A stretch of DNA of 64,000 nucleotides from Clostridia bacterium. GTDB taxonomy: Bacteria; Bacillota; Clostridia; UMGS1883. The notes beneath the pieces were generated by a model. It had not been told where the DNA came from and ran no database searches. It was given only the letters and a program-made list of their open reading frames with translations. Made by a program: the position numbers and the translations under genes. The stretch is from assembly GCA_017472685.1 (NCBI GenBank), contig JAFUOO010000022.1, forward strand, positions 77,483-141,482. Direction: 5' to 3'. Shown here in pieces: positions 49,488 through 64,000 of this stretch; within the stretch, counting starts at the first letter, position 1; the number at the start of each line of letters is the position of its first letter.

Positions 49488-49560
49488 AATAACTGCTCCT
49501 TAATTGTACTGATAAAATTATATCATTGAATAACAGGAAATTCAATGATATAATTGTGTT

Positions 49561-50103: not shown

Positions 50104-50816
50104 AAATGACAAGGCCATACATAATTTGTCACATGGTGACAAGTATTGACGGAAAGGTCACGGGGGACTTTTTGTACCGTCCCGAATGTGAAAAGGCAAC
50201 GGAGGTCTATTACGAAATCAACCGCAATTATAATGTTGACGGCTTTATCTGCGGGAGGGTAACCATGGAAAGTAGCTTTACAAATTGTTGGTATCCCGAT
50301 TTGTCAGCATATGATAGTGTTGAGGACAAGCGTGATTTTATTCCCCATAACCTTTCAGGCTTTTATGCTATAGCTTTTGACCCCAAGGGCAAGCTGGGCT
50401 GGAAGAGCAGCATTATTATTGACGATGACCCCGGCTATGGAAATGCGCAGATAATCGAGGTTTTAACAAAGCAGGTTGACTGTCGCTATCTTGGCTATCT
50501 TCAAAAAACGGGCATTCCGTACATCTTTGCAGGTGAAACCGAAATTGATGTTAAGACAGCTCTTTTTAAGCTTAAAAACCTTATGGGTATAGGCACCCTT
50601 CTTTTAGAGGGCGGAAGCATTGTAAACGGCTACTTTGAGCGTGCAGATGCTATCGACGAGCTTAGTTTGGTTGTGGCGCCTGTGGTTGCAAAGGGTGAGG
50701 ACAAGCCGCTTTTTACGGATGCATGCATTGCAGACTACAGATTGCTTGATGTTAAAAAATGTGATTATAGCGTTATATGGTTAAACTACAAAAAAGATAA
50801 AAGCTGCACAGAATAA
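50099..50816 (+). CDS. RibD-C-terminal / dihydrofolate-reductase-like domain protein
   Basis: ICHMVTSIDGKV...LLLEGGSIVNGYF. ATG at 50099 with ribosome-binding site. Confidence 0.55.
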
Positions 50817-50832
50817 TCAAAGGAGCAAGGTT

Positions 50833-52305
50833 ATGTCAAACATGTTGATACTTTCTATTACGAAAATCGGTGATTTACTGACTGAAAAAAGAATAACGAA
50901 AGACGAAAACGGACAACCAATAGATAATATTAATTTAGTCATACCCGAATATCAGCGCCCATATAAGTGGACCGCAAAAAATGTTAATCAGCTGCTGGAT
51001 GATATTATACAGGCAAAGAGTGAGAACAAGGAAGTATACCGCGTCGGAACACTCATTTTACATAAGGATAGAAACCGCGGAGAATACAATGTTGTGGACG
51101 GACAGCAACGAATAACAACCTTTGCATTGCTTCTGAAAGCATTGGGCGTTGGAAATGTTTCATTTCTTGAGCAGAAAATGACAGATAATCCCTATAACAG
51201 ATTTAACATTATCAATAACTATCGCACACTGAAGCGTCGTGTGGATAATTTGGCTGTTCAGAAGGGCGACCTTTGCAATTACATAAAAAACAATTGTGAA
51301 TTGATAGTTGTCATTACCGAAAATATTTCAGAGGCATTCCAATTTTTTGACTCCCAGAATGCACGCGGAAAAAAGCTATACCCACATGACCTCCTGAAAG
51401 CATACCATTTGCGGGAGATGAATGATTTGGATGCGGAGGAAACCGAAAAGATTGTTAAAACGTGGGAGGATTTAGACCAAAAAACACTTGCTGAGCTGTT
51501 TTCTGATTACTTATACCGTTTGAAAGAATGGATAAAGGGAAATAAGTCGGGTGAACTTAATGAGCACAATTATGATATGTTCAAGGGTGTAACGATGCAC
51601 GATAATTTTCCTTACGCACAGTTTTATAAAGGTGCATTTGCATACGCAGACAACATCAACAATTCGCCCATCCCGTTTGTTACGGGAATGCGTAAGCTCA
51701 GCGCTTTTCAGTTAGATACGCCTATTGTTGCCGGAAAACCGTTTTTTGACTATGCAAAACACTATTTTGAGCTTCTGGCGGATATAAGAAATAACGACAA
51801 ATACGAGGGGCATTTTATAAATGATAATAAAATAATGAAAACCTTAAATTTAAGGGAAAATCGCAATGGTGTAGGTAACACAATAGTAAGACGTATGCTT
51901 GACGCTGCCATACTTCTGTATATAGACAGATTCTGCCCTGAAAAGCCCACCGGCACAGATACCGAAATGCTTGACCAATTTGTAGTGTTTGCTTTTGTAT
52001 GGGCATACTCTCTCAGGGCACAATATCAAAATCTTGGTTGGCAAGCCGCTCAGAATTACATTATGGGAAACAATGGCAAAGTAACCAATTCGTTCAATCT
52101 TTATAAAGTCATAACAGAGAGCGATTCGCCCGTTGAACTTTTCAGCACACTTTCTGATAAAATTTTGCCACTGTCATATAATGATTTACCTGCATCCGAT
52201 AAGTACAGAGAAGCGAAAGTAGCAAATATAAACGAAAAAGATAAGAATGATGTTTATCAGAATTATCTTCATTTCTTCGTTGAGCATAATTTTTGGAGGG
52301 GATAA
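50833..52305 (+). CDS. DUF262 (ParB/GmrS-like NTPase) domain protein
   Basis: Hallmark motifs IPEYQRPYKW and DGQQRITT. Very low GC. Confidence 0.7.
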   Translation: MSNMLILSITKIGDLLTEKRITKDENGQPIDNINLVIPEYQRPYKWTAKNVNQLLDDIIQAKSENKEVYRVGTLILHKDRNRGEYNVVDGQQRITTFALLLKALGVGNVSFLEQKMTDNPYNRFNIINNYRTLKRRVDNLAVQKGDLCNYIKNNCELIVVITENISEAFQFFDSQNARGKKLYPHDLLKAYHLREMNDLDAEETEKIVKTWEDLDQKTLAELFSDYLYRLKEWIKGNKSGELNEHNYDMFKGVTMHDNFPYAQFYKGAFAYADNINNSPIPFVTGMRKLSAFQLDTPIVAGKPFFDYAKHYFELLADIRNNDKYEGHFINDNKIMKTLNLRENRNGVGNTIVRRMLDAAILLYIDRFCPEKPTGTDTEMLDQFVVFAFVWAYSLRAQYQNLGWQAAQNYIMGNNGKVTNSFNLYKVITESDSPVELFSTLSDKILPLSYNDLPASDKYREAKVANINEKDKNDVYQNYLHFFVEHNFWRG

Positions 52306-52307
52306 AA

Positions 52308-54359
52308 ATGAAAAATAAAGCATTGCCTCTTAAAGAGATTTCGGTTTCGGAATTGTATAACGGCAGCAACAAAATGATTTTTGAAGTGCCTGTTTATCAA
52401 AGAAATTACGCATGGGAAAAAGATGAAATATCCGCCCTGATCCAGGATGTATACGATGCCTGTATAAAGGGCTCGGATGTGTATTTCATCGGAACTCTCG
52501 TGACTTTTAATAAAGGTGATAATGTTTACGAGGTTATTGATGGTCAGCAGCGACTTACTACAATAAATCTTATTTTAAATGCCTTGCATATAAAGCCGAA
52601 CAACCCTCTCACGTATAAAGCACGAAAAAAATCAAATAACACAATAAAGCACATTCCATCCTTTGACATAGATGAAAAAGATCATGGCATTGTTAATGGC
52701 TTCAAGTATGCTGAAACATCGATAAACGAAAAAATTGCAAGTGATGATTTTGAAGCGTTTAAAACATATTTTCAAAACAATGTACACATCATTCATTACG
52801 AGGTCCCACGTGATATTGATTTGAATCATTATTTTGAGATAATGAATTCCCGCGGCGAACAGCTTGAAAAACACGAAATTGTAAAAGCACGTTTAATAAG
52901 CTATATAAAAAATGATTACGATAAAAGCACATTTAATTTTATATGGGAATGCTGCTCGGAAATGGGTGTATACGTACAGCAAAAATATAAGGAAAAAGAC
53001 GTTTTCGGACCTGATTTGTGTGAACTTATTGTCGATGCGTTTGAGCAGCTGCCTTTCACTAAAAAAGATTCCGAAGAACAGCTTTCCATTAATGCATTGA
53101 TTGAAAGCGAAGCTAAGTACGAATTGAAAAATCCTAACATATCAGATGACAAGCCCGATTCCTTTCAGCCTGTTATTGATTTTCAGAATTTCTTGCTGAT
53201 AGTTCTTAAAATAACAAGAATAACTAATGAGCATAATTTTAATCCCATCAGCTTTAACCTTGACGACAAAGAACTGATTAATGAATTTGAGAAAGTAGCC
53301 TGTGATAATTATGGCGGAAAGGAAAGCTTTGCAAAAAACTTTGCTTACAACTTATTAAAAATAAAATATCTGCTTGATAATTATGTGGTGCATCATTCCA
53401 ATGAGGAAGACACTATCGAAAACAACCCATGGAAGCTGCAGTATTGGCAGTATAATACTGATAAGAAAAAAGGTCCTCTCAGGTCATTGTGTAGTGATGA
53501 AGAGTTGCAACACAAGCTTGTGCAGCTGTTGTCCATGTTTGAGGTGTCATTTACTGCCCGACAAAGAAAAAATTATTTATTTTATTGCCTGCTGTTTTTG
53601 TTTGAAAAATATAATTCCCATACTTACGATGAAGACCTTTTGCCTGAATACGGGAATTTTGTGGAAGCTCTGGCAAAAAAATATTTTTGTGATGTTTATT
53701 TAGTTGAGGATAAACTGAATAATATCAACACGCCCAAGCCGGGCAGCTTTGACGAGGTTGTTTTATGTAATAATAAACTCAATGTGATAGCTGATAATCT
53801 GAACATCCATGTTTTTGAAAAAATTTACGGTGACGGAACTGTAGCCTCGAAAGGTGTACCGTTGTTTATTTTTAACTATCTGGACTATAAACTGTGGGAA
53901 TATTATGCAGAAAATCTGCGCGGTGAAAAACTGAAAGAAAAAAGTCCCGCACGTCGGGAGTTCTTTAACGAACTGGGGTGTAGCGATTTTGGACTTGATG
54001 TTTTTAATCAGTTTTATTTTTCAAGAACAAGGAGGAGCCTGGAGCACTACTATCCTCAGGCAAATATTACGAATTCAACCATGGATGATAATCAGATTAA
54101 TTGTTTGGGTAACTATGCAATGATAGGCAGTGCAATAAACAGCGCCGGTTCAAATTGGAGCCCAAAAACAAAATTAGACTGTTATCTGGACACATCGGGG
54201 AAAATAAAACAGGTTAGCGTAGCTTCGTTAAAGTTTATGATTATGATGCAAAAATGTAAGGATGAAGACAGAAAAGGTGAGAGAAATCCGGGGTGCGAAT
54301 GGATATTTGAGGACATAAAGGAACACCAGAAAAAAATGCTGAAATTTTTTGAAAAGTAA
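52308..54359 (+). CDS. DUF262-DUF1524 (GmrSD-like) protein with C-terminal His-Me-finger nuclease
   Basis: PVYQRNYAW and DGQQRLTT N-terminally. C-terminally SLEHYYPQ...N...GN is a DUF1524/HNH-like motif. ATG with GGAGGGG ribosome-binding site. Confidence 0.7.
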   Translation: MKNKALPLKEISVSELYNGSNKMIFEVPVYQRNYAWEKDEISALIQDVYDACIKGSDVYFIGTLVTFNKGDNVYEVIDGQQRLTTINLILNALHIKPNNPLTYKARKKSNNTIKHIPSFDIDEKDHGIVNGFKYAETSINEKIASDDFEAFKTYFQNNVHIIHYEVPRDIDLNHYFEIMNSRGEQLEKHEIVKARLISYIKNDYDKSTFNFIWECCSEMGVYVQQKYKEKDVFGPDLCELIVDAFEQLPFTKKDSEEQLSINALIESEAKYELKNPNISDDKPDSFQPVIDFQNFLLIVLKITRITNEHNFNPISFNLDDKELINEFEKVACDNYGGKESFAKNFAYNLLKIKYLLDNYVVHHSNEEDTIENNPWKLQYWQYNTDKKKGPLRSLCSDEELQHKLVQLLSMFEVSFTARQRKNYLFYCLLFLFEKYNSHTYDEDLLPEYGNFVEALAKKYFCDVYLVEDKLNNINTPKPGSFDEVVLCNNKLNVIADNLNIHVFEKIYGDGTVASKGVPLFIFNYLDYKLWEYYAENLRGEKLKEKSPARREFFNELGCSDFGLDVFNQFYFSRTRRSLEHYYPQANITNSTMDDNQINCLGNYAMIGSAINSAGSNWSPKTKLDCYLDTSGKIKQVSVASLKFMIMMQKCKDEDRKGERNPGCEWIFEDIKEHQKKMLKFFEK

Positions 54360-54931: not shown

Positions 54932-54945
54932 AATTCCACAAAACA

Positions 54946-54978
54946 AAAGACAGCACCTTTTGGTACTGTCTTTTGTTT
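54946..54978 (+). terminator. rho-independent terminator (imperfect stem)
   Basis: aaagacagcaccttttggtactgtcttttgtttt. Confidence 0.65.
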
Positions 54979-54999
54979 TGTGGCGGAGAAGGTGGGATT
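54972..54999 (-). repeat. attachment-site-like direct repeat copy 1 (tRNA 3'-end core plus flank)
   Basis: tttgttttgtggcggagaaggtgggatt is repeated at 55074-55102. Confidence 0.6.
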
Positions 55000-55073
55000 T
55001 ACCCGTTCGGGCATAAACTTCGAATCCTTTCATCATCCAAAAAACAAAAAGCACTATCTTTCGATAATGCTCT

Positions 55074-55130
55074 TTGTTTTTTGTGGCGGAGAAGGTGGGA
55101 TTCGAACCCACGTCCCTCGGGGGGCATCAT
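55074..55130 (-). other. tRNA 3'-end fragment (T-arm, acceptor 3' strand, G discriminator, CCA) = attachment-site direct repeat copy 2; no complete cloverleaf
   Basis: The minus-strand sequence reads ...GGGACGTGGGTTCGAATCCCACCTTCTCCGCCA. The T-loop TTCGAAT is canonical. No matching 5' acceptor strand or D-arm could be found upstream on that strand. Confidence 0.55.
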
Positions 55131-55367
55131 GATTTCGAGTGATATACACTCTGACTTTCTTAATCGTTTCTACAATCTGATATAACTCTCTTGAAAGAGC
55201 TGAAAACCTGGAAAAATAAGGGTTTTTGGCTCTTTTTTGTGTGCTTAAGACTTGATTTTTGTGGCTTTTGAAAAATGTGATTTTAACACAAAAAATTCAC
55301 TTTGGGCAAAACTAGGGCAAAACAGATTTATACTTAAAAACCATTAAAACGTATGAAAGGGCACATT

Positions 55368-55643
55368 ATGAAAACGAAATGGAAGGAATTTTGCGAAGCT
55401 TGGCTTGCTGACGAGCCTGATATATTAACCGTGCTTGAAGTCAAACGTATCACAGGCTATTGCAAAAGCTCGGTGCAAGGCTGGATTGACAGAGGACTTG
55501 TTGTTGCCTTTCGGGCAAAACGGTCAAATAAAATTCCCAGGTCATCGCTGCTCAAATTTATGGCAAGTGATTATTTTCGCAATATGCACGTTAAATCAAA
55601 AAAGCTGAAGGAAAAATTAAGTGAGTTTGAAAGGATGGATTGA
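55368..55643 (+). CDS. excisionase/HTH-type DNA-binding protein
   Basis: VKRITGYCKSSVQGWIDRGLV resembles an HTH_17/Xis-like helix-turn-helix. Confidence 0.45.
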   Translation: MKTKWKEFCEAWLADEPDILTVLEVKRITGYCKSSVQGWIDRGLVVAFRAKRSNKIPRSSLLKFMASDYFRNMHVKSKKLKEKLSEFERMD

Positions 55644-55646
55644 TTT

Positions 55647-55997
55647 ATGAGGGTTGATTATATCAAATACGGAAGGGGCTATTTGCCCACTGCAGCACCG
55701 AAGGAGAGCTATGATATTTGCAGATTCGGACACGCATATTTAAGCTACTTAAAGCAAAATAAACGAGTATTATATTCACGGTTATTGATTACCGGAAGGC
55801 TTTTAAAGCATGTTGCACACGTGGATAAACTGGCCCGGCAGATGTACGATGATATCATTCGTGACAGAATTGGAGATGCACCGCCCAGAGAAAACCAGAA
55901 GGAATGGGACGAGTTTATAAATAGACTTCGCAATAGTGCCGAGAAAATCGTGTATAAGGAAATTCTTTTCAAAGATGAAAGAATCAGAGAGGTGTAA
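55647..55997 (+). CDS. hypothetical protein (116 aa)
   Basis: ORF within the island operon. Confidence 0.35.
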   Translation: MRVDYIKYGRGYLPTAAPKESYDICRFGHAYLSYLKQNKRVLYSRLLITGRLLKHVAHVDKLARQMYDDIIRDRIGDAPPRENQKEWDEFINRLRNSAEKIVYKEILFKDERIREV

Positions 55998-56004
55998 GAA
56001 AACC

Positions 56005-56814
56005 ATGAGAATAGCATACCCAATCGGATTTACACAAATACCCAATTACATACTACGCAGCAAGGTGTTAAAGCCCTTGCAAAAGGTCGTGCTTGCCGTT
56101 TTGTGTAGCTATGCCAATGATGAAAATCTCGCATTCCCGTCTTACCAGACTATTGCAAATGACAGCGGAATCAGCAGAAGAAAAGCCATTGAGATTATTG
56201 GTGACTTGGAAAGGCTTGGTTGCATCAGAAAGATTGCACAGAAAAGCACTAAGGGCGATAATACCGCCAATGATTATGTAGTTCTGATAGGTGGTGCAGA
56301 TTTTGCACTACCCGGTGAATCTCCTGCACTACCTGGTGAATATGGTGCACCACCCTGTGGTGAATCTCCTGCACCACGTGGTGAACGTCGTGCACCCAAT
56401 CAATATATAGATAATAATATTAATATTTATTTTAATAATAACCATCAATCCATCACGGCTGCCGAGATGGATGAGATGGAAGAACAAATCAAAGAAAATA
56501 TTGATTATACGATTTTGAAACAGAGCTATACAGACGGTATGCTTGAAGAAATTGTCAGCGTAATGGTAGAAGCTACTTGCGCTACTGCTACGACGATTCG
56601 TATTGGAGACAACGAATTTCCGCGAGAGGTTGTTAAAGCCCAAATGCTGAAGCTCGGCAGCGAGCATGTGGAGTATGTAATCGATTGCATCAAGAAAAAC
56701 ACTACCAAGGTACGAAACATAAAAGCCTATATGCTAAGGTGCATTTACAACGCTCCGCAGACCATAGCCCACTACTACACCGCAGAGGTGAATCACGATT
56801 TGTACGGCGGATAG
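56005..56814 (+). CDS. replication initiator / replisome organiser (N-terminal HTH, C-terminal DnaD-like domain) with internal Pro/Gly-rich tandem repeat
   Basis: The N-terminus (FPSYQTIANDSGISRRKAIEII) is a Rep-type winged helix. The C-terminus (KAQMLKLGSEHVEYVIDCIKKN...KAYMLRCI) is DnaD-like. DNA repeats lie at about 56290-56400. Confidence 0.55.
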   Translation: MRIAYPIGFTQIPNYILRSKVLKPLQKVVLAVLCSYANDENLAFPSYQTIANDSGISRRKAIEIIGDLERLGCIRKIAQKSTKGDNTANDYVVLIGGADFALPGESPALPGEYGAPPCGESPAPRGERRAPNQYIDNNINIYFNNNHQSITAAEMDEMEEQIKENIDYTILKQSYTDGMLEEIVSVMVEATCATATTIRIGDNEFPREVVKAQMLKLGSEHVEYVIDCIKKNTTKVRNIKAYMLRCIYNAPQTIAHYYTAEVNHDLYGG

Positions 56815-56925
56815 CTCAGAGCTGTAAAACGATAGTTTTTGTATTAGCAAGCACGGCATTTGTATAGACAAAAGCCGCTTGTTAGGGATAATCCCTAATA
56901 CCCATTTGTTATTGGAGGTGGAACT

Positions 56926-57243
56926 ATGAGATACAAGCAAAAGCAATTAAATTTTTATGTTTCTGATAAGGTGTGGGAAAAACTTCAAAAATTGAAAAAG
57001 AAATCAGGCTTAACTATGACAGCGATAATATCAAAACTTATCATGGGTTACGAAATTCATCCTCTTAAAACTGAAGAGCTTTTTAGAATATACAAAGAGC
57101 TGAACCATATAGGCAATAACATAAATCAAATTGCTCATATCGCCAATTTGGAAAAACATGTGTCTAAAGAAAAAATTAGCGAGGTAGAAAAGCTTATGGA
57201 CCAAATATGGGAATGTGTCTTAAGCTACGATGAGAAGAAATGA
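56926..57243 (+). CDS. MobC-like mobilisation accessory protein (no cognate relaxase present)
   Basis: About 105 aa with YKELNHIGNNINQIAHIAN, typical of MobC / Bacterial_mobilisation. Confidence 0.55.
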   Translation: MRYKQKQLNFYVSDKVWEKLQKLKKKSGLTMTAIISKLIMGYEIHPLKTEELFRIYKELNHIGNNINQIAHIANLEKHVSKEKISEVEKLMDQIWECVLSYDEKK

Positions 57244-57391
57244 TTATGAGCTTTGAAAAAACTGTATTACGAAAATCTAAATTCTGGCGAAAAACAGATT
57301 GGATGAGCGTATTTATAACCTTGAAAAAAGTTGACACAGAAAAAGAAATGTATATAATAAATTACAGAAGCTTTTTATTTTCCAAGGAGTT

Positions 57392-57604
57392 ATGATTATG
57401 AGTAAAGAAGGAAAGTTTTTAGTTTTTTGTATTGAACAATATAAGTCGGCCAAAAATTTAACAGGAAAACAGGTTGCAGAATTGTTCAGGAAGTATGAAG
57501 TATATGAATATATTTTTAGTTGCTACGGAGCGTTGCATACTACAGGAACAAACTATATTATTGCAGATATAGACTTATTTATCGAGGCACGACAAGCAGG
57601 CTGA
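57392..57604 (+). CDS. small hypothetical protein (DUF3791-like)
   Basis: 70-aa ORF with a GGAG ribosome-binding site. Confidence 0.4.
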   Translation: MIMSKEGKFLVFCIEQYKSAKNLTGKQVAELFRKYEVYEYIFSCYGALHTTGTNYIIADIDLFIEARQAG

Positions 57605-57799
57605 TAAAATTTAATTATGATAAACAATGAGGTTATGCACGTGAGAGCATAACCTCGTTTTTGTTGGTTTAAGCTTATAGGACTTTATGCTGATGATAAC
57701 GCGAAAGCCAATTAGTCAATCGTGAATTACTCATTTATACTTGACTAAATTGCTTTGTATGTGCTATACTATAGATAACCAAAAATGGAGGTCATACAT

Positions 57800-59194
57800 A
57801 TGTTTATTGGCAGAGAACGCGAGCTTAATGCTCTGAATAAACTTTATGAATCGAATAAATTTGAATTTGCTGTTATCTATGGCAGACGTCGTGTTGGTAA
57901 AACTGCGCTCATAAATGAGTTCATAGGCGATAAAAAAGCTATTTACTTTATGGGCGTTGAAAGCAACGCAAAGCAGAATCTTGAAAACTTTTCAAAAAGT
58001 ATTATGGAGTTTGCAAGCGGTATTGAAACGGAGTCCTCTTTCCTTTCTTTTCAGGCTGCATTAGAGTATGTTTTTAAGCTTGCAGAGAACGAAAGAATAA
58101 TCCTTGCTATTGACGAATACCCTTACGTGGCTCGTTCATCAAAAAGCCTTGCATCTACCTTACAGCTTTTAATTGATAAATATAAAGATAACTCAAAGTT
58201 GATGCTCATTCTCTGCGGTTCCTCTATGTCATACATGGAAGACCACGTGCTTGCATACAAAGCACCCTTATACGGTCGCAGAACGGCTCAAATGAAGCTT
58301 TTGCCATTTGACTTTGAAGAAACTTGCCGATATTTCAAAAACCTTTCTGACGAGGATAAGGCGCTTATTTACGGTATAGCAGGCGGTACGCCTCAGTACC
58401 TTTTGCAGATGGATGACAATTTAAGCGTTGAGGATAATATCAAAAACACATACTTGAATCCGATTTCATTCCTTTACGAAGAACCGACTAACCTTTTAAA
58501 ACAAGAGGTTCGTGAGCCTGCAATTTATACAGCTATCATTACAGCGATTGCAACAGGTTCATCAAGAATGTCGGAGATTTCAAGCAAGGTTGGCGAAGAT
58601 ACTAATGTTTGCACAAATTACATTAAGAACCTTATGAACCTTGGTATTGTGCAAAAGGAAACTCCCTACGGAGAAAAGGCTTCTCGTAAGTCGATTTACT
58701 CTATTGAGGATAATATGTTCCGTTTCTGGTATCGCTTTGTGCTTGATAATAATTCAATCATTGCCCGTGGTGCTGCTGATCTGGTTTATAAGAGAATTGA
58801 GCCTCAGCTTTCAGACTATATGGGTAAGGTTTTTGAAGAAATCTGTAAGCAGTACCTTTGGAAACAGCTTCTTTCAGGCAACTGCCCGGTAGAGTTCACT
58901 TCCCTTGGTCGTTGGTGGGGCAACGATCCTACAGAAAAATGCCAGGCAGAAATCGATATTATGGGCGAACAGGACAAAAACACAGCCCTCTTTGCAGAAT
59001 GCAAATGGACAAATGAAAAGGTTGACCTTGGCGTTTTAGAAACACTTGTAAAACGCGGCAATCTGTTCCCGTATAAAACAAAGCATTATTACCTGTTCTC
59101 AAAATCCGGATTTTCAAAGGGATGTGTGGATAAAGCGAATGAAATGGGTAATGTGAGTTTGGTAAATTATCGAGATATGGTGGAGGAAAAATAA
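57800..59194 (+). CDS. AAA-type ATPase of the COG1672 family with DUF234 C-terminal domain
   Basis: MFIGRERELNAL...YGRRRVGKTAL Walker A, and a conserved C-terminus. ATG at 57800. Confidence 0.6.
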   Translation: MFIGRERELNALNKLYESNKFEFAVIYGRRRVGKTALINEFIGDKKAIYFMGVESNAKQNLENFSKSIMEFASGIETESSFLSFQAALEYVFKLAENERIILAIDEYPYVARSSKSLASTLQLLIDKYKDNSKLMLILCGSSMSYMEDHVLAYKAPLYGRRTAQMKLLPFDFEETCRYFKNLSDEDKALIYGIAGGTPQYLLQMDDNLSVEDNIKNTYLNPISFLYEEPTNLLKQEVREPAIYTAIITAIATGSSRMSEISSKVGEDTNVCTNYIKNLMNLGIVQKETPYGEKASRKSIYSIEDNMFRFWYRFVLDNNSIIARGAADLVYKRIEPQLSDYMGKVFEEICKQYLWKQLLSGNCPVEFTSLGRWWGNDPTEKCQAEIDIMGEQDKNTALFAECKWTNEKVDLGVLETLVKRGNLFPYKTKHYYLFSKSGFSKGCVDKANEMGNVSLVNYRDMVEEK

Positions 59195-59279
59195 GATGGG
59201 ATAGTTAAGCTATAACTAATGGATTTGGAGATTTCTTTAAGATAATCATTTAAAAAAATAAACAAAAGGAGAATGAATT

Positions 59280-61310
59280 ATGCGTTTAATTAAAGCACGA
59301 GTACAAGGATATCGAAGTATAATTGATACAGGGTATTTTGAAGTGGAAAATGACAAAACAATTTTGGTTGGACCAAACGAAGCGGGAAAAACCGCAATTT
59401 TGCAAGCGTTACAAAAACTTAATCCTCCGGAAGGGGTTGCGTTATTTGATCCTTTGAGAGATTATCCTCGTTCTAAATATGATGAGGATATTAAAAACGG
59501 CAATATTGATTCTAGCACATTTACTGTAGTAGAAGGTCATTTTGCTTTGGAAGATGACGATAGAGATGAATTGCCAGAAGCCTACAAGGATGTTATTTAT
59601 GTCTGCGGACGATACTTAGATAATACAATGTGGCATCGACTGGATAACGCACCATCAAAACTTATTTTTTCTGAAATTGAAAAGGATTTATTGAAGATTT
59701 GTCAACATTACAAAAATACAAGCGTGGCAAATGGAGACCCAGAAGCCAAGCAGGTAGCTATACAAACTGGGTATGATACTGCAGTTTTATATCTTCGCAG
59801 GACAAGTGTTATCTCTAGCGTTAAGGCAAAACAAATCACTACTTGGTTGAAAAACAATTTAGTATATCTTGAAGATGATAATGCAACAGAAGAAAAGAGG
59901 TATGAAAAACTTCTTGAACTATTGGAAAAACCTATAGAACGCAATGATGTTCTTACAATTTGCGAAGAGAGATTACCTAAATTTATACTTTTTAGTAATT
60001 ATTTTAGAATTAAGCCAGTGTTGCATTTGAAGAAGTTAGCAGAACGCATCGACAAAAAAATGTTGGATGATGAACAGTATGACTACGGAAATATATGTTT
60101 GCTTAAATTTTTAGGGTTTACTCCCAAAGAACTTGCAGAAGCAGGCGAAACTTCAAAATATGATCTGAATAAACCGGATCAGTACGAGCAATATCGAGCG
60201 CAATTAGACAAAAGAGATTATCAACTAAATGCTGCTACTATTAGGCTTACAGATGCAATTTGTGAAATTTGGAATCCAAAAAAAGATGGGCGAGACGCAA
60301 ATAAGCTTAGAATTAAGGTTGATGGACAATATCTCAAGGTTGTTGTTGAAGACGATTTGGGTGTAGAAGTAGAACTTGATCAGCGTTCTGAAGGTTTCCA
60401 ATGGATGGTATCATTCTATGTTGTGTTCTTCGCAGAGGCATCTGATAAACATAAAAATGCAATTTTATTGTTAGATGAACCGGGTCAAAGTTTACATGCT
60501 CTTAAACAAGCAGAGTTTATTGAAACATTGACAAAATTGAGTAAGAAAAACCAAACATTGTATACTACACATTCCCCATTCCTTGTTGGGACAGATGAAC
60601 TTGATAAGGTCCGTGTTGTTGAGATGACAGATAGAACAACCGGTACAAAAGTAAATTTGTCGTTAACGGCTAGCGATAGTGGTGCAATGCTTCCATTACA
60701 AGAAGCGTTAGGCTACGATTTGGCGCAAAGTTTATTCTTCCATAAAAAGAACCTCGTTCTTGAAGGATTGACTGACATGTGGTATATAGAAAGTTTATCA
60801 GAGTTGTTTAAGGCCGATGGAAAAACTGGGATTAACGAACAAATTGCATTAATTCCTGCTAACTGCGCGAGCAAGGTAGTATATTTTGCAACAATTCTGC
60901 ACGCACAAAATCTTAAAATTTCGGCACTTTTGGATTCGGATGCAGAGGGAGAATTGGCGGCGAAACAAGAGACATTAATTAACGCAGTAGGTGCTAAGCG
61001 TATCCTAAGGACAAAGGATGTTTACAGTGGACAAGTATCTGCTGTTGAAATTGAGGATATACTTAGGGATACATTGTTGAATATCGCAAAAGATCAATGC
61101 GGTTGGGATGCTATAGCTGTTGCTAAAACACAAGCAAAACGTCCAATTGTAGATGTTTTAAAGAGTGTAGCAAAAGCTGATTTTTCTAAGTATAAGTTAT
61201 CTAAAGCTTTTATAAGATGGTCTCGGGATCACGGATTAAACGATTTACAACCTCATGAAATTGCACAGGCAGGACAACTTATAGAAAAGATTAACAAATC
61301 TCTTCAGTAA
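59280..61310 (+). CDS. OLD-family nuclease: ABC-type ATPase fused to a TOPRIM domain (stand-alone, class-1-like)
   Basis: N-terminal Walker A GPNEAGKT, and an ABC signature/Walker B region (LLLDEPGQSLH). C-terminal TOPRIM (LVLEGLTDMWYIE...DSDAEG). Confidence 0.7.
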   Translation: MRLIKARVQGYRSIIDTGYFEVENDKTILVGPNEAGKTAILQALQKLNPPEGVALFDPLRDYPRSKYDEDIKNGNIDSSTFTVVEGHFALEDDDRDELPEAYKDVIYVCGRYLDNTMWHRLDNAPSKLIFSEIEKDLLKICQHYKNTSVANGDPEAKQVAIQTGYDTAVLYLRRTSVISSVKAKQITTWLKNNLVYLEDDNATEEKRYEKLLELLEKPIERNDVLTICEERLPKFILFSNYFRIKPVLHLKKLAERIDKKMLDDEQYDYGNICLLKFLGFTPKELAEAGETSKYDLNKPDQYEQYRAQLDKRDYQLNAATIRLTDAICEIWNPKKDGRDANKLRIKVDGQYLKVVVEDDLGVEVELDQRSEGFQWMVSFYVVFFAEASDKHKNAILLLDEPGQSLHALKQAEFIETLTKLSKKNQTLYTTHSPFLVGTDELDKVRVVEMTDRTTGTKVNLSLTASDSGAMLPLQEALGYDLAQSLFFHKKNLVLEGLTDMWYIESLSELFKADGKTGINEQIALIPANCASKVVYFATILHAQNLKISALLDSDAEGELAAKQETLINAVGAKRILRTKDVYSGQVSAVEIEDILRDTLLNIAKDQCGWDAIAVAKTQAKRPIVDVLKSVAKADFSKYKLSKAFIRWSRDHGLNDLQPHEIAQAGQLIEKINKSLQ

Positions 61311-61312
61311 AC

Positions 61313-61355
61313 AAAAATAGAAGGTAGGTGTGTTTTACCTACCTTCTATTTTTGT
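61313..61355. terminator. strong bidirectional terminator
   Basis: aaaaatagaaggtaggtgtgttttacctaccttctattttt. Confidence 0.85.
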
Positions 61356-61363
61356 TTACTATA

Positions 61364-62305
61364 CTATCTGAATTCATCAAGCCAGGCTTGGAATTGCTCG
61401 AGGGTGATTTCACCGTTATAGCATTTTTTTCGTTCTGCACGGGCGAGCTTACCGAATTCTTTGAATTCTTCCTTTGTGATGAGCTTTGCTCTCTGACGGG
61501 AATCCATACGACGATAAGCCGTGATGTAGGCTTTGTGGATTGCATCATCTTTATGAACAATATCAAAGGTTTTAATTGCGCCGATTTCGCTACAAGGCTT
61601 TGTTTCACCTGACATAATTCTTTCGCAGTATTCGCTGTTTACACGACCACGGGGGATAAAATATTCACCGCAGCATTTACAGGGCTTAAGCTTAATCTTA
61701 TTTACAAGCATAAGCATTATATCAAAGCGGATTACATCGTCTATTGTTTCAAGGGGATAGACTGTGATGCCATTATCTGCATCAAATTGAGTTACAAAAT
61801 CAAAATTAAACAGCTTGCTCTCTTCACGGTGCTTTGTAAAGCGCTGAGGAAGAGAGCCTTCTTTATCTTTAATAATTTCATCTAACAATGGTTTGATTTC
61901 TGTCTTTTTCTTATGGATGCTTACGAGTATCGCATTAAGAAATTTTTCAAAATACTTTTTAGAGCCTTCTTCGGGTGCAATAAAATCACTTCCAAGGAAG
62001 GTTATAAATTCACTGCTACCGTTAGCAAGATAATCAATGAAAGAAGCAATATATATGGTCAAATAGCTGTTCTTGTCAACATAAGCAGCAGCTTTCTTGA
62101 CTGCCTGTTCTATGTCTCCGCCACCGAATGCAATAATTATATCAATGAAAATCAGTCTGAACATTTCGGTGTCAATCCAAAGAAAGTCAAAAAGAGCCTT
62201 GCCGGAGGTTGTGCCGACAACGGTTTCTTCTATCTGATCAAATTTTAACTTATATGAGGTCTGGTTGCCATTGGCAAAGCCAAAGATTTTTGTATTTTCT
62301 TTCAT
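61364..62305 (-). CDS. hypothetical protein with Cys cluster (CKCCG...C...C)
   Basis: The ORF extends to 62380. The preferred start is MKENTK at 62305, with a GAGGA ribosome-binding site. Confidence 0.4.
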   Translation of the reverse strand: MKENTKIFGFANGNQTSYKLKFDQIEETVVGTTSGKALFDFLWIDTEMFRLIFIDIIIAFGGGDIEQAVKKAAAYVDKNSYLTIYIASFIDYLANGSSEFITFLGSDFIAPEEGSKKYFEKFLNAILVSIHKKKTEIKPLLDEIIKDKEGSLPQRFTKHREESKLFNFDFVTQFDADNGITVYPLETIDDVIRFDIMLMLVNKIKLKPCKCCGEYFIPRGRVNSEYCERIMSGETKPCSEIGAIKTFDIVHKDDAIHKAYITAYRRMDSRQRAKLITKEEFKEFGKLARAERKKCYNGEITLEQFQAWLDEFR

Positions 62306-62529
62306 AATACATCCTCTTGATAAACGATTATAAATAATTCCTGAAAGTATTATATCGCGTCGTTTTTGAAAAGTCAACACAAATGCATAAAACGATTATT
62401 TGAAAACAAATTTTGAATAAACTTGACAAGCGTTGGGCGGTATGGTACACTATGAACGACGATAAGAAAAAATAAGTATAATAATCGCCAGAAACGCAAA
62501 CTAAGAATAACTAATGAGGAGGTGAAATC

Positions 62530-62724
62530 ATGAATGTATTAAACTATACACAAAAATTAAAGCATTATCCTGATGTGCTGACTACCGATCAGGCGGCTGA
62601 AATTCTTAATGTCAGCAAGAAAACGATTTATATGGCAATTAAAAACAAGGAACTACACGCTGTAAAAATTGGACGAGAATACAGGATAGTAAAAGCAAAG
62701 CTTGTTGAAATGCTGGTATCGTAA
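62530..62724 (+). CDS. excisionase-family HTH protein
   Basis: LTTDQAAEILNVSKKTIYMAIKNKEL is a classic Xis/MerR-type HTH. It lies directly upstream of int. Confidence 0.6.
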   Translation: MNVLNYTQKLKHYPDVLTTDQAAEILNVSKKTIYMAIKNKELHAVKIGREYRIVKAKLVEMLVS

Positions 62725-62732
62725 GAGGGTGA

Positions 62733-63929
62733 GTGTTTTTGAAAAAAGAAATTAAGGTTTCCGGACATCTGGAGGTTATCAAGGGCGTTTACCATATGAA
62801 GCTATCTTGGGTGTCTGCAGAGGGTAAGCGACAGAGAAAATCAAAAAGCACGAATTTACCTGAACGAGGAAACAAAAAGCGAGCGCATGATATGCTGATT
62901 GATTTTCAGCGTGAGCAAGAGGCAGAGCTTATAGCTAACGGAAACGGAATAAAGGATATACTTTTCACCGATTATTTGAAGCAATGGCTTGAAAAGACCA
63001 AACTACAAATCCGCCTTACTACCTACAGTGGTTATCATGATAATATACACGGGGTAATAATTCCATACTTTGAGCCCATGAAGCTTAAGCTTAGAGAGGT
63101 TACTCCGAAGCATATTCAGGATTTTTATACGAATCAAAGAAAGCGTGTAAAAGGAACAACGGTCAAAAGCTATCATGCAAATATTCATAAGGCATTTAAG
63201 GATGCAAGGAAGCTACAGCTTATAGACTCAAACCCTATGGAATGTGTAGATCCACCCAAAAAGGAACCCTATCATGGTCAGACCTACACCGTTGAGGAGG
63301 CACAAAAAATACTTGCATTAGTAAGTGATACTATTTATGAAATACCTATAACCGTGATGCTGTTTTACGGTCTTCGTCGTGAGGAGGCAATCGGGCTTAA
63401 GTGGCAGAACATTGATTTTGAAAGCAATACTTTTTTGATTGCACATACTGTAACCGAAACAAGTATCGATGGACGCCTGCAGGTGATTAAAGAGGATTTG
63501 ACTAAAAACAACAGCAGCTACCGTTCACTTCCGTTGGTGCCTCCTGTTAGGGAGCTGCTTTTAGAAAAGAAGCAAAGCATTCGGGAATACAGAAAGCTTT
63601 TCAGAAAAGGTTATTGCTTCAAGGATTCGGATTATGTCTGTGTGAATGAGCTTGGTGAGTTAATCAGACCGAGAACCCTGTCGGATAACTTCAAAAGAAT
63701 TATTCGCAAGAACAGGCTCAGAACTTTAAGATTATACGATTGCAGACATACTGCGGCGAGCATAATGTTGAAAAACGGTGTCAATATGAAGCAGATTCAA
63801 ATGATACTGGGACACAGTGATTTTGCGACAACTGCAAATATTTATTCTCACCTTGATTATTCCGATAAAATATCAGCAGCAGAAAAAATGAGAAATATAA
63901 TCTACGGTGAAGATAATGAATCGGTTTAG
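62733..63929 (+). CDS. tyrosine site-specific integrase
   Basis: N-terminal SAM-like domain. The catalytic domain has R (GLRREEA), HxxR (CRHTAAS) and a C-terminal Y (ANIYSHLDY). The exact start is uncertain (GTG/TTG). Confidence 0.85.
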   Translation: MFLKKEIKVSGHLEVIKGVYHMKLSWVSAEGKRQRKSKSTNLPERGNKKRAHDMLIDFQREQEAELIANGNGIKDILFTDYLKQWLEKTKLQIRLTTYSGYHDNIHGVIIPYFEPMKLKLREVTPKHIQDFYTNQRKRVKGTTVKSYHANIHKAFKDARKLQLIDSNPMECVDPPKKEPYHGQTYTVEEAQKILALVSDTIYEIPITVMLFYGLRREEAIGLKWQNIDFESNTFLIAHTVTETSIDGRLQVIKEDLTKNNSSYRSLPLVPPVRELLLEKKQSIREYRKLFRKGYCFKDSDYVCVNELGELIRPRTLSDNFKRIIRKNRLRTLRLYDCRHTAASIMLKNGVNMKQIQMILGHSDFATTANIYSHLDYSDKISAAEKMRNIIYGEDNESV

Positions 63930-64000
63930 GGCAAATCGAGGCAAATTTGGGCAAAACAAGCCCTGTTTTAGATAAAGTAAATGCGGGCTTGCAACATAGC

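What the first reader, a model, noticed from the sequence alone, without database searches (positions are those of the whole stretch)
55131..64000. Integrative mobilizable-element-like island with decayed mobilisation genes and GGGCAAAAC repeats at both ends
Between the attachment-site repeat and the terminal integrase lie two Xis-type HTH genes, a DnaD-like replication initiator, and MobC without any relaxase or coupling protein. There are also an ATPase, a nuclease and a Cys-cluster protein. GGGCAAAAC/GGGCAAAT motifs occur at 55304-55323 and again just after the integrase stop (63929-63957), consistent with arm-type recombinase binding sites. The element appears to have lost autonomous transfer functions but retained integration, excision and replication functions.
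Basis: partly seen in the sequence, partly recalled or inferred. Interest (0 to 1): 0.55.

Follow-up and report, generated by a model that had tools for sequence, protein, structure and literature searches.

The report
Mobile island carrying a replacement tRNA
A 9-kb mobile DNA island has inserted into the serine-tRNA gene of a gut Clostridia bacterium, splitting that gene and apparently bringing its own intact copy; the island type is ordinary, but this tRNA-replacing end has so far been described only for a few phages.

Summary
Window 55141-64000 is the first 8.9 kb of a 9.13-kb integrative element. It ends 267 nt past the window end, as shown by an identical metagenome scaffold (L001).

The element lies in the anticodon loop of a tRNA-Ser(CGA) gene. 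The host 3' half is at 55084-55140. The host 5' half lies beyond the window, next to tadA.

Related species have an uninterrupted tRNA there and no island. Elements with 71-87% identical integrases sit at the same tRNA in many gut Clostridia MAGs.

GGCAAA-type repeats form the only three clusters in 66 kb, all at the element ends, and are conserved across relatives.

Some relatives carry mobC plus a relaxase; this element has mobC only. But mobC is under purifying selection (dN/dS 0.10) next to a conserved oriT-like block. This is a known relaxase-less IME design, not simple decay.

The new point: neither junction rebuilds the tRNA. The element carries a complete tRNA-Ser(CGA) plus a 155-nt arm-like spacer ending in a second 8-bp core (TTTCGAGT). 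This layout recurs in 16 of 22 informative loci. It resembles tRNA-dependent lysogeny of actinophages, here in a mobilizable island with anti-phage cargo. Excision and transfer are untested.

The parts
54935..54999 (-). Older scar: a terminator hairpin plus a 19-nt copy of the tRNA-Ser 3' end (54981-54999).
   Evidence: It is 82% identical to 55036-55102. The 19-mer occurs twice in the window, against 0 expected. It resembles the native terminator plus tRNA end of the empty-site species L072.
55038..55083 (-). Terminator hairpin downstream of the displaced tRNA 3' half.
   Evidence: Inverted repeat read directly from the sequence.
55084..55140 (-). Displaced 3' half of the resident tRNA-Ser(CGA) (attL side). 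The 8-bp core TTTCGAGT is at 55133-55140.
   Evidence: 55 of 57 nt match the 3' half of the intact tRNA beyond the window. It maps to the 3' half of the uninterrupted tRNA in L073 and L072. Joined to the distal 5' half it gives a valid tRNA-Ser(cga) in ARAGORN; attL alone gives none.
55141..55352 (+). Left arm of the element. It holds a conserved hairpin followed by a T-run (about 55197-55238) and two direct GGGCAAAAC repeats (55304-55312, 55315-55323).
   Evidence: About 81-82% identical to the left ends of the relatives L052, L053 and L059 (L079 carries the same left end); the repeats keep the same distance from the core. It is one of only three GGCAAA clusters in 66 kb.
55368..55643 (+). 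HTH_17 protein at the left end, role unknown. It contains a third exact GGGCAAAAC at 55513-55521.
   Evidence: Pfam HTH_17 scores 29.1 bits. There is no hit to the excisionase model. Homologues are 63-96% identical in 73 protein clusters.
55647..55997 (+). TnpV-family protein (backbone gene).
   Evidence: Pfam PF14198, E = 9e-18. It is 79% identical to the L052 protein.
56005..56814 (+). HTH_36 + DUF6017 protein. It is a putative replication or maintenance protein; this role is unproven.
   Evidence: Pfam. It is 88% identical to the L052 protein. Homologues of about 30% identity, annotated only as DUF6017, occur on Enterococcus and Clostridium plasmids. No PDB relative was found.
56841..56898 (+). 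Putative oriT: an invariant block GTATTAGCAAGCACGGCATTTGTA (56841-56864) plus the inverted repeat TTAGGGAT/ATCCCTAA (56882-56898).
   Evidence: The block is identical in all five relaxase-less relatives, although the surrounding intergenic DNA has diverged. The relaxase-carrying relatives L052 and L053 have a variant block. The inverted repeat was found. That it is an oriT is inferred from its position upstream of mobC (PMC12084326).
56926..57243 (+). mobC (NikA-like/MobC relaxosome accessory protein). No relaxase gene follows it.
   Evidence: Pfam NikA-like E = 2.9e-13 and MobC E = 1.8e-10. The gene is intact in L059, L040 and L038. dN/dS is 0.10 against L059.
57240..57395 (+). 51-aa ORF whose start is a remnant of a DUF6809 gene. 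It marks the left edge of a deletion or replacement relative to L059-type relatives.
   Evidence: Nucleotide homology to L059 stops at 57281. There is an 11-aa match to the DUF6809 N-terminus. No Pfam hit.
57392..57604 (+). DUF3791 protein, an orphan component of a candidate defence system.
   Evidence: Pfam DUF3791, E = 2.6e-22. PADLOC PDC-M13C, E = 3e-35.
57785..59194 (+). ATPase_2 + DUF234 ATPase. It is a conserved backbone gene of the family and a candidate defence gene.
   Evidence: Pfam. PADLOC PDC-S27, E = 1.6e-66. It is 87-95% identical in L019, L035-L040 and L052.
59280..61310 (+). OLD-family ATPase + TOPRIM nuclease. This is variable cargo in the slot between the ATPase and DUF6076.
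   Evidence: Pfam AAA_15, AAA_21 and OLD-like_TOPRIM. PADLOC 'Old', E = 3.6e-24. Relatives carry other cargo in this slot, such as restriction-modification genes, a reverse transcriptase and a SLFN-like helicase.
61364..62380 (-). DUF6076 Cys-cluster protein. It is always next to the Xis-Int pair.
   Evidence: Pfam DUF6076, E = 1.5e-13. Present at 61-84% identity in every relative whose upstream DNA is held.
62530..62724 (+). Excisionase-family HTH protein (Xis / recombination directionality factor).
   Evidence: TIGR01764 'excise' scores 55.6 bits against a cut-off of 28.8. Pfam HTH_17, E = 2.8e-13.
62733..63929 (+). Tyrosine integrase.
   Evidence: Pfam Phage_integrase and two SAM-like N-terminal domains. 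Distant PDB relatives include the Tn1549 Int. Relatives 71-87% identical all lie about 90 nt from a tRNA-Ser(CGA).
63928..63957 (+). Integrase-proximal cluster of three direct repeats: GGGCAAATC, (A)GGCAAATT and GGGCAAAAC.
   Evidence: Conserved in most relatives but absent in L061 and L062.
63981..64000 (-). Start of the terminator hairpin (to 64010) that follows the element-borne tRNA.

Beyond the window, in coordinates extended with L001:
- intact tRNA-Ser(CGA), 64018-64106, minus strand
- spacer 64113-64267, with GGCAAA repeats at 64145, 64163 and 64175
- second core TTTCGAGT, 64268-64275
- host 5' half, 64268-64313
- tadA, 64357-64818, minus strand
   Evidence: L001 is identical to the window over 11,471 nt. 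ARAGORN calls the tRNA. Sequence and repeats are shown. The terminator-like hairpin was found.

Best explanation
What it is. Window 55141-64000, plus 267 nt beyond the window, is a 9.13-kb integrative, mobilizable-type element. It belongs to a family common in gut Clostridia (Oscillospiraceae-like MAGs). It is inserted in the anticodon loop of the resident tRNA-Ser(CGA) gene, downstream of tadA.

Shown:
- The resident tRNA is split at the 8-bp sequence TTTCGAGT. Its 3' half stays at the left junction. Its 5' half, with its native upstream DNA, stays at the right junction.
- Neither junction rebuilds a tRNA.
- Just inside its right end the element carries a complete, structurally conserved tRNA-Ser(CGA) with its own terminator. 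This is followed by a 155-nt spacer that looks like a second, degenerate copy of the integrase-proximal arm (GGCAAA repeats, then a decayed 3'-half-like stretch). The spacer ends in the second core.

Inferred mechanism:
- The tyrosine integrase, helped by the excisionase-family protein, recombines at the 8-bp core.
- The direct GGGCAAAAC-type repeats on both arms are arm-type integrase sites.
- The element's own tRNA replaces the one it destroys.
- Because the element holds two cores, it can recombine at either one. Using the outer core moves the tRNA and spacer with the element. Using the inner core gives a classical element that regenerates the tRNA, and leaves a tRNA-plus-spacer scar.
- The element-borne tRNA is also a fresh landing site, which would explain the tandem and nested arrays seen in relatives.

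Transfer (inferred). The element has no relaxase. It keeps a conserved oriT-like block and a selected mobC, so it would be mobilised by a relaxase and mating pore supplied in trans.

Cargo. Its genes are candidate anti-phage genes: an OLD nuclease, an ATPase_2/DUF234 ATPase and an orphan DUF3791 gene.
For: Boundaries:
- An identical scaffold extends the window.
- The intact tRNA lies 89 nt after the integrase stop, and a second 5' half lies 201 nt further on.
- Empty sites in related species (TadA 82-84% identical) hold one intact tRNA and no integrase or spacer.
- The L073 tRNA maps in two pieces, to 55081-55143 and to 64268-64320. The pieces overlap only at the core.
- The native upstream motif 'aagttaatatatac' is attached to the distal half, not to the element tRNA.
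- ARAGORN accepts the rejoined host halves as a tRNA and rejects both junctions.

Family:
- 16 of 22 informative loci have the layout integrase - tRNA - spacer of 154-157 nt (32 nt in L021; L028 not measured) - TTTCGAGT - locus-specific 5' half - unrelated flank.
- Spacer identity tracks integrase identity (Spearman 0.75, p = 0.005). The flank beyond stays at about 50%.
- The tRNA-spacer block is 84% identical between the window and L061, although the hosts' tadA genes are only 68% identical.
- L061 and L062 have GGCAAA repeats only in the spacer.
- In the element tRNAs, 18 of 25 base pairs show compensatory changes.

Recombination at the outer core:
- L077 joins spacer and core to the left end of an element; the same left end abuts the inner core in L036.
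- L078 has stacked 5' halves with spacers from two arm-motif families.
- L059 has a tRNA, then a foreign spacer and core, then this family's left end.

Recombination at the inner core: L038 has a chimeric tRNA, L040 a simple end, and L035 and L039 are tandems.

Mobilisation.

Cargo.

Precedent: PMC10865867.
Against: - No excised circle and no same-species empty site was found.
- The empty sites come from species whose DNA is only about 75-79% identical to the window host.
- In the window itself, the element tRNA differs from the rejoined host tRNA at only 3 positions. It is 88/89 identical to the resident tRNA of L072. Pairing of the halves therefore cannot tell which 5' half is native. That call rests on flanking sequence and on family comparison.
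- The sequences next to the outer core do not resemble the anticodon-stem half-sites of attB.
- The integrase N-terminus hits no Pfam arm-binding family, and the structure model was useless (pLDDT 34).
- The oriT, arm-site binding, tRNA expression and current mobility are all untested.
- A near-identical copy in another sample has indels in mobC and in the OLD gene, so some copies are decaying.
Confidence: 0.62

Rival explanations
1. Classical integration into a pre-scarred site. A canonical element, whose attP is the tRNA 3' half plus the core, integrated at the inner core. It regenerated the tRNA in the usual way. The 5' half of that tRNA, the spacer and the distal 5' half were already in this chromosome, left by an earlier element. 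On this reading the present island ends at 64074 and does not carry a whole tRNA.
For: - Simple and chimeric right ends in L040 and L038 show that classical crossover at the inner core happens in this family.
- The 57-nt repeat 55084-55140 / 64018-64074 (96.5% identical) is what a classical island would show.
- In the window the intact tRNA is host-like, 88/89 identical to the L072 tRNA.
- L059 shows that a tRNA plus spacer plus core can sit in a chromosome without an adjacent integrase.
Against: - Nearly every host, across many species, would need a prior scar from the same arm-motif family. 16 of 22 informative loci have the array. Spacer identity tracks integrase identity, and the spacer is better conserved than the host tadA gene.
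- The empty sites seen have no such scar.
- The scar itself could only have been made by an element of the outer-core type, so the family-level conclusion stands either way.
Confidence: 0.22
2. Fixed, immobile remnant. The island was once mobile but can no longer excise or transfer, and is drifting toward loss.
For: - It has no relaxase.
- A DUF6809 remnant and an orphan DUF3791 gene mark an internal deletion.
- A 99.74% identical copy in another sample has two indels that break mobC and the OLD gene.
- All 10 contigs with the identical flanking flavin-reductase gene either carry the island or break at the repeat.
Against: - The integrase, Xis, DUF6076, HTH_17, TnpV and DUF6017 proteins, mobC and both arms are full length.
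- The left-end proteins (HTH_17, TnpV, DUF6017) are 79-88% identical to those of L052.
- mobC is under purifying selection.
- The arm repeats and both cores are intact.
Confidence: 0.12
3. Phage satellite or other phage-related island. On this reading it is moved by a helper phage rather than by conjugation.
For: - It is small, has an integrase, Xis and a Rep-like gene, and lacks a relaxase.
- Relatives with 44-45% identical integrases occur in 'Bacteriophage sp.' contigs from faecal virome data.
Against: - No capsid, terminase, packaging or phage-regulator family was found.
- mobC and an oriT-like block are conserved, and close relatives carry a MobA/VirD2-type relaxase.
- No relative was found in IMG/VR.
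- The virome records are unverified.
Confidence: 0.04
4. Ancestral, non-mobile gene cluster that only looks like an island.
For: None beyond the shared gene order in contigs of the same strain lineage.
Against: - Related species have an intact tRNA and no island.
- The same module sits at tRNA-Ser(CGA) in hosts with unrelated flanks.
Confidence: 0.01

Closest known systems
Non-canonical IMEs devoid of relaxase (mobile genomic islands; the 'oriT + relaxosome accessory factor' scheme V in Guédon et al. 2017, PMC5704250). Also the relaxase-less MGEs with a mobC-type oriT in Faecalibacterium (PMC12084326).
   Same: It has a tyrosine integrase and an excisionase, no relaxase, no coupling protein and no T4SS. 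It has an accessory MobC next to a conserved oriT-like sequence, defence and adaptive cargo, tandem and nested composite structures, and a gut Clostridia host.
   Different: Mobilisation is untested and no helper is identified. The Rep-like/TnpV/DUF6076 backbone and the tRNA-carrying right end are not features described for those elements in the papers read.
tRNA-dependent lysogeny of actinobacteriophages (Fionnbharth and Cluster L phages; Guerrero-Bustamante and Hatfull 2024, PMC10865867). The Lactobacillus johnsonii prophage Lj965 is cited there as a possible case.
   Same: [quoted passage not shown] No tRNA is rebuilt at either junction. [quoted passage not shown] Close relatives use the canonical long-core mode at the same tRNA.
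   Different: This element is not a phage; it has conjugative-mobilisation parts. Its tRNA lies directly beside the att site and itself contains a second usable core, so both modes coexist in one element. The need for the tRNA is untested. The host is a Clostridia bacterium, not an actinobacterium.
Classical tRNA-targeting genomic islands, anticodon-loop sublocation (as catalogued by Islander, PMC4383910).
   Same: The integrase lies next to an intact tRNA. A displaced 3' fragment of 57 nt lies at the far end. The crossover is in the anticodon loop.
   Different: A further 5' half with the native upstream DNA lies 201 nt beyond the intact tRNA, after a conserved element-type spacer. Classical integration does not produce this.
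Tn4451/Tn4453 clostridial mobilisable transposons, the source of the TnpV family name (from my own knowledge).
   Same: It encodes a TnpV-family protein, is small, and is mobilizable rather than conjugative.
   Different: It has no large serine recombinase (TnpX) and no TnpZ-type Mob protein. It uses a tyrosine integrase and a tRNA site.

Membership tests
Canonical integrative and mobilizable element (IME) | Own integration/excision module (integrase, att sites) | tested here: met
   A tyrosine integrase and an excisionase-family protein are present. A split tRNA target and empty sites in relatives were found.
Canonical integrative and mobilizable element (IME) | Own relaxase gene | tested here: not met
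   No relaxase domain is present in any ORF, and tblastn with the relaxase of relative L052 finds nothing in the island.
Canonical integrative and mobilizable element (IME) | No complete conjugation (T4SS) module | tested here: met
   All eleven island ORFs were assigned or scanned. None is a VirB4, VirD4 or other T4SS protein.
Relaxase-less IME / MGI (oriT + relaxosome accessory factor) | Relaxosome accessory factor present and maintained | tested here: met
   NikA-like/MobC Pfam hits. The gene is intact in diverged relaxase-less relatives, with dN/dS 0.10.
Relaxase-less IME / MGI (oriT + relaxosome accessory factor) | Functional oriT recognised by a helper relaxase | tested here: inconclusive
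   An invariant 24-nt block and an inverted repeat lie upstream of mobC. A related variant occurs upstream of mobC-relaxase in L052 and L053. No nicking or transfer data exist.
Relaxase-less IME / MGI (oriT + relaxosome accessory factor) | Mobilisation by a co-resident conjugative element | not testable with these tools
   This needs mating assays. No helper was seen in the window.
tRNA-dependent lysogeny-type integration | attB overlaps a host tRNA gene; tyrosine integrase | tested here: met
   The target is the anticodon loop of tRNA-Ser(CGA).
tRNA-dependent lysogeny-type integration | Only a short common core, so no functional tRNA is rebuilt at attL or attR | tested here: met
   An 8-bp TTTCGAGT is the only identity between the two junctions. 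ARAGORN finds no tRNA at either junction. Caveat: the classical-integration rival places attR at the inner core.
tRNA-dependent lysogeny-type integration | [quoted passage not shown] | tested here: met
   A complete tRNA-Ser(cga) lies inside the inserted DNA. Its structure is conserved with compensatory changes across relatives.
tRNA-dependent lysogeny-type integration | Element tRNA is required for survival of integrants; the host tRNA is single-copy or essential | not testable with these tools
   The host genome is not available beyond the window. This needs genetics.
tRNA-dependent lysogeny-type integration | The element is a temperate phage | tested here: not met
   No phage structural, packaging or lysis families were found. 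Mobilisation genes are present instead.
Classical tRNA-regenerating genomic island | The island supplies only the 3' part; the regenerated tRNA uses the native 5' half and promoter | tested here: not met
   The native upstream sequence seen at empty sites is attached to the distal 5' half, not to the intact tRNA. It is met in the relatives L038 and L040.
Tn4451/Tn4453 family | TnpX large serine recombinase and TnpZ Mob protein | tested here: not met
   Only TnpV is shared.
OLD-family nuclease defence (single-gene, P2 Old-like) | N-terminal ABC-type ATPase plus C-terminal TOPRIM in one protein, with no partner helicase | tested here: met
   Pfam AAA_15 and AAA_21 hits. OLD-like_TOPRIM scores 23.0 bits, just under its 23.2 cut-off. 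PADLOC 'Old' E = 3.6e-24. No UvrD-like gene is adjacent. Anti-phage activity is untested.

The most novel reading that the evidence does not exclude
A guild of small mobilizable islands in gut Clostidia-class bacteria (at least three integrase/arm-motif families: GGGCAAAAC, GGGGAGAAC/GGAGAGAA and GTTAGAA) uses a 'split and replace' strategy at tRNA-Ser(CGA). Each element destroys the resident tRNA through an 8-bp anticodon-loop core and supplies its own tRNA. That tRNA carries a second core.

If so, elements could switch between a tRNA-carrying form and a classical tRNA-regenerating form. They could leave replacement tRNAs behind as scars. They could also offer a new landing pad to the next element, building stacked arrays of defence cargo and steadily replacing the host's tRNA-Ser allele.

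This would extend tRNA-dependent integration from actinophages to conjugatively mobilised islands, and add a two-core switch.
Probability: 0.4. Interest if true: 0.7.

Novelty: new variant of a known kind. Interest (0 to 1): 0.5.

Why it matters
- Island-mapping tools assume that a tRNA-targeting island regenerates its target and is bounded by a displaced 3' fragment. Here they would place the right boundary about 200 nt too early. They would also miss that the intact tRNA is foreign.
- If the two-core design works as proposed, it explains how tandem and nested arrays of defence-carrying islands build up at one tRNA in gut Clostridia.
- It would also show how host tRNA alleles get replaced by element-borne ones.
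- It would show that integration dependent on an element-borne tRNA is not limited to actinophages.
- It gives a concrete, testable case of a relaxase-less island that keeps oriT and mobC under selection.

Tried and rejected
- ARAGORN and Rfam on the window found no tRNA. Only a T-arm fragment hit the tmRNA model. I rejected tmRNA because the discriminator base is G and because the full tRNA-Ser lies beyond the window.
- An exact-protein look-up of the integrase with the GTG start found nothing. Xis worked instead.
- The look-up of the flanking flavin reductase gave only occupied or broken contigs, with no same-species empty site.
- I searched for loci holding both junctions and a discriminating acceptor stem. 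The relaxase-carrying relatives L052, L053 and L079 are too long for the 10-kb flank, and the L040 locus misses the left core by about 60 nt.
- The Xis homologue list did not contain the contigs I wanted.
- The predicted outer-core attP junction has no exact match in viral contigs, and no integrase relative is in IMG/VR.
- Circularity of the virome contig L077 could not be shown.
- The integrase N-terminus hits no Pfam arm-binding family.
- The single-sequence AlphaFold model of the integrase was unusable (pLDDT 33.6), so no fold search was run.
- The Rep-like protein has no PDB or NCBIfam match.
- The promoter scan for the element tRNA gave one consensus match, no better than chance.
- The literature search returned nothing on DUF6017, DUF6076 or DUF3791; the few TnpV hits listed were not read.
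- The 51-aa ORF is not a relaxase remnant. It is a DUF6809 N-terminal remnant.

Full report
**1. Observation**

They are:
- an HTH_17 protein (55353/55368-55643)
- TnpV (55647-55997)
- an HTH_36+DUF6017 protein (56005-56814)
- NikA-like/MobC (56926-57243)
- DUF3791 (57392-57604)
- an ATPase_2+DUF234 ATPase (57785-59194)
- an AAA_15 + OLD-type TOPRIM protein (59280-61310)
- a DUF6076 protein with a Cys cluster on the minus strand (61364-62380)
- a second HTH_17 protein (62530-62724), which passes NCBI's excisionase model
- a tyrosine integrase (62733-63929)

No relaxase, coupling protein or T4SS family is present.

The 9-mer GGGCAAAAC occurs four times in the window, against about one expected. 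With the 6-mer GGCAAA, the only same-strand clusters in 66 kb are the three at the element's ends. Shuffled sequence never gives a cluster of three.

**2. The attachment site is a tRNA-Ser(CGA) gene**

ARAGORN finds no tRNA in the window. But 55084-55140 reads as the reverse complement of a tRNA 3' half, from the anticodon loop to CCA.

A metagenome scaffold (L001) is identical to the window over 11,471 nt and continues past it. I use window coordinates extended with this scaffold. Features after the integrase stop (63929):

| Feature | Coordinates |
|---|---|
| three GGCAAA repeats | 63928-63957 |
| terminator hairpin | 63981-64010 |
| intact tRNA-Ser(cga), minus strand | 64018-64106 |
| spacer with three more GGCAAA repeats | 64113-64267 |
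| second TTTCGAGT | 64268-64275 |
| second copy of the tRNA 5' half | 64268-64313 |
| tadA, minus strand | 64357-64818 |

The spacer also contains a stretch that aligns to the integrase-proximal arm.

**3. Empty sites**

Species whose TadA is 82-84% identical (L072-L075) carry, downstream of tadA, one uninterrupted tRNA-Ser(CGA). They have no integrase and no spacer.

In blastn, the L073 tRNA maps in two pieces. Its 3' half maps to 55081-55143. Its 5' half plus upstream DNA maps to 64268-64320 at 96% identity. The two pieces overlap only at the core.

The native upstream motif (aagttaatatatac-GGAG) is attached to the distal 5' half. The intact tRNA has a different upstream sequence (caatttcatatac-GGAG).

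Rejoining 55084-55140 with the distal half gives a valid tRNA-Ser(cga). Neither junction is a tRNA.

So, relative to empty sites, the inserted DNA is 55141-64267 (9.13 kb), and it includes the intact tRNA and the spacer.

**4. The family and its right end**

Integrase relatives (71-87% identity) from Clostridia and Oscillospiraceae MAGs, and from metagenomes, all lie about 90 nt from a tRNA-Ser(CGA). The sources include human gut samples and a water-deer rectum sample.

Of 22 loci with enough DNA after the integrase:
- 16 show the composite layout: integrase, tRNA, spacer (154-157 nt; 32 nt in L021, not measured in L028), TTTCGAGT, a 5' half with locus-specific stems, then an unalignable flank.
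- 2 (L038, L040) have a simple end. In L038 the element-type 3' half is joined at the inner core to a non-matching 5' half. This is the signature of classical crossover.
- 4 (L027, L035, L036, L039) have another element's left end abutting the inner core.

Several results tie the spacer to the element rather than to the host. Spacer identity to the window tracks integrase identity (Spearman 0.75, p = 0.005), while the next 200 nt stay at about 50%. The tRNA-spacer block is 84% identical between the window and L061, although the hosts' tadA genes are only 68% identical. The distal half and its 12 upstream bases are identical in the two. L061 and L062 lack GGCAAA repeats next to the integrase and have them only in the spacer. 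Across 15 element tRNAs, 18 of 25 base pairs show compensatory changes.

**5. Both cores are recombination joints**

Joints at the outer core:
- In L077 (integrase 44% identical), a spacer and core are joined to an element left end. The identical left end abuts the inner core of a window-family element in L036.
- L078 has a stacked series: tRNA, spacer (GGAGAGAA repeats), core, a 5' half, a second spacer (GTTAGAA repeats), core, a 5' half, then host DNA.
- L059 has a complete tRNA, then a GTTAGAA-type spacer and core, then this family's left end.

Stacked 5' halves cannot arise from classical integration. They are what successive outer-core integrations into the previous element's tRNA would produce.

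Inner-core joints are listed in section 4.

**6. Mobilisation module**

Relatives whose left-end HTH protein is 79-85% identical to the window's (L052, L053, L055, L079) share the left 1.8 kb of backbone at about 82% DNA identity. They then carry a NikA-like gene plus a 443-aa MobA/VirD2-type relaxase, followed by DUF6809 and further genes.

The window has a different mobC type, 27% identical to the L052 NikA-like protein, and no relaxase. The same relaxase-less arrangement occurs in L059 and L060 (mobC 84% identical) and in L036, L038 and L040 (56-64%). For mobC, dN/dS against L059 is 0.10, with dS = 0.89.

Upstream of mobC, the block GTATTAGCAAGCACGGCATTTGTA (56841-56864) is invariant in all five relaxase-less elements, while the neighbouring intergenic DNA differs. 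A related variant precedes mobC-relaxase in L052 and L053. An inverted repeat follows at 56882-56898.

I read this as an oriT plus its accessory protein, matching the 'oriT + accessory factor' scheme in PMC5704250 and the relaxase-less MGEs of Faecalibacterium in PMC12084326. This is an inference.

Real decay is also visible:
- Homology to L059 stops 38 nt after mobC.
- The 51-aa ORF is a DUF6809 stub.
- DUF3791 is an orphan.
- A 99.74% identical copy (L002) has two indels that break mobC and the OLD gene.

**7. Cargo**

PADLOC assigns the ATPase_2/DUF234 protein to candidate system PDC-S27, the 676-aa protein to Old, and DUF3791 to PDC-M13.

The ATPase is backbone: it is 87-95% identical in relatives. 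The slot between it and DUF6076 is variable. Relatives hold restriction-modification genes, a reverse transcriptase with an AAA_15 protein, a SLFN-like helicase or a radical-SAM gene there.

**8. Mechanism and confidence**

Shown: the split target, the 8-bp shared core, the foreign intact tRNA, the conserved repeats on both arms, and joints at both cores within the wider family.

Inferred:
- The integrase and Xis act at the core.
- The repeats are arm-type sites.
- The element tRNA compensates for the split gene.
- Use of the outer or the inner core decides whether the tRNA travels with the element or stays behind.
- Transfer needs a relaxase in trans.

I could not decide one point for this particular copy: whether the tRNA 5' half and spacer arrived with it, or were left by an earlier element of the same kind. 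In the window, the element tRNA and the rejoined host tRNA differ at only three positions. Either way, that DNA is foreign to the locus.

**9. Comparison with known systems**

The closest mechanism is tRNA-dependent lysogeny of mycobacteriophages (PMC10865867). It has a short core, no rebuilt tRNA and a phage-borne tRNA of the same isotype, and sister phages use the canonical mode.

The present element is not a phage. It also keeps both modes in one structure.

As an island type it is a relaxase-less IME. None of the 15 listed abstracts, among 23 papers that mention tRNA-dependent lysogeny, concerns a mobilizable island. I rate it a new variant of a known kind, of moderate interest.

Noticed in passing
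window 49528-54343: A 4.8-kb low-GC block lies between the 4HBT thioesterase and flavin-reductase genes. It holds a YgjP-like gene, RibD_C and two adjacent GmrSD/DUF262-type genes (50833-52305 and 52293-54359). The two GmrSD/DUF262-type genes give PADLOC hits to HEC-06, Orf5 and SspE-like models. The block is absent at this position in the related species L073. It looks like a second, integrase-less defence insertion beside the island.
   Followed up: partly
window 54935-54999 versus 55036-55102: Two 82% identical copies of [terminator hairpin + tRNA-Ser 3' end] lie in tandem left of the island. L072 has a comparable duplicated 3'-end-plus-terminator about 300 nt after its tRNA. L061, L062 and L073 have 17-18-nt tRNA 5'-end fragments about 190 nt upstream. 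The locus carries many small tRNA-end scars of unknown origin.
   Followed up: partly
extended coordinates 55081-64880, compared with L073 6938-7759: The [tadA - tRNA-Ser] segment is inverted in the window host relative to L072 and L073. In those species the order is flavin reductase, tadA, tRNA, then the 306-aa gene, all on one strand. Whether the inversion is linked to the element was not examined.
   Followed up: no
window 57785-59194: The ATPase_2/DUF234 gene (PADLOC PDC-S27) is the best conserved protein of the family. It is 87-95% identical where the integrase is 71-87% identical. This suggests a backbone role or a recent sweep rather than ordinary cargo.
   Followed up: no
L001 11489-11577 (extended 64018-64106), compared with L072 7671-7759: The window's element-borne tRNA is 88/89 identical to the resident tRNA of the empty-site species L072. 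It is unlike the element tRNAs of the closest integrase relatives, such as L019. The tRNA seems to be exchanged or gene-converted between element and host copies.
   Followed up: partly
L028 11255-12120: In this relative a tRNA-Pro(cgg) sits between the integrase and the element tRNA-Ser. A second tRNA-Pro(cgg), plus extra 15-nt tRNA-Ser 5'-end fragments, lies 400-700 nt further on.
   Followed up: no
L061 11740-12160, compared with L062 4170-4380: Two samples from the same study differ by a tandem duplication of about 200 nt. It lies just upstream of the displaced host 5' half.
   Followed up: no
L001 11623-11650 (extended 64152-64179): The only promoter-like match upstream of the element tRNA (TTGCCC-16-TATTAT, minus strand) overlaps the spacer's GGCAAA repeats. 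If real, integrase binding and tRNA transcription could interfere with each other. The match is no better than chance.
   Followed up: no
L035 9722-10260 and L039 10104-10600: The elements inserted at the inner core of window-family elements carry their own direct repeats (GGGAACT-type) on the left arm, at a similar distance from the core. This suggests a parallel integrase and arm-site family at the same tRNA.
   Followed up: no
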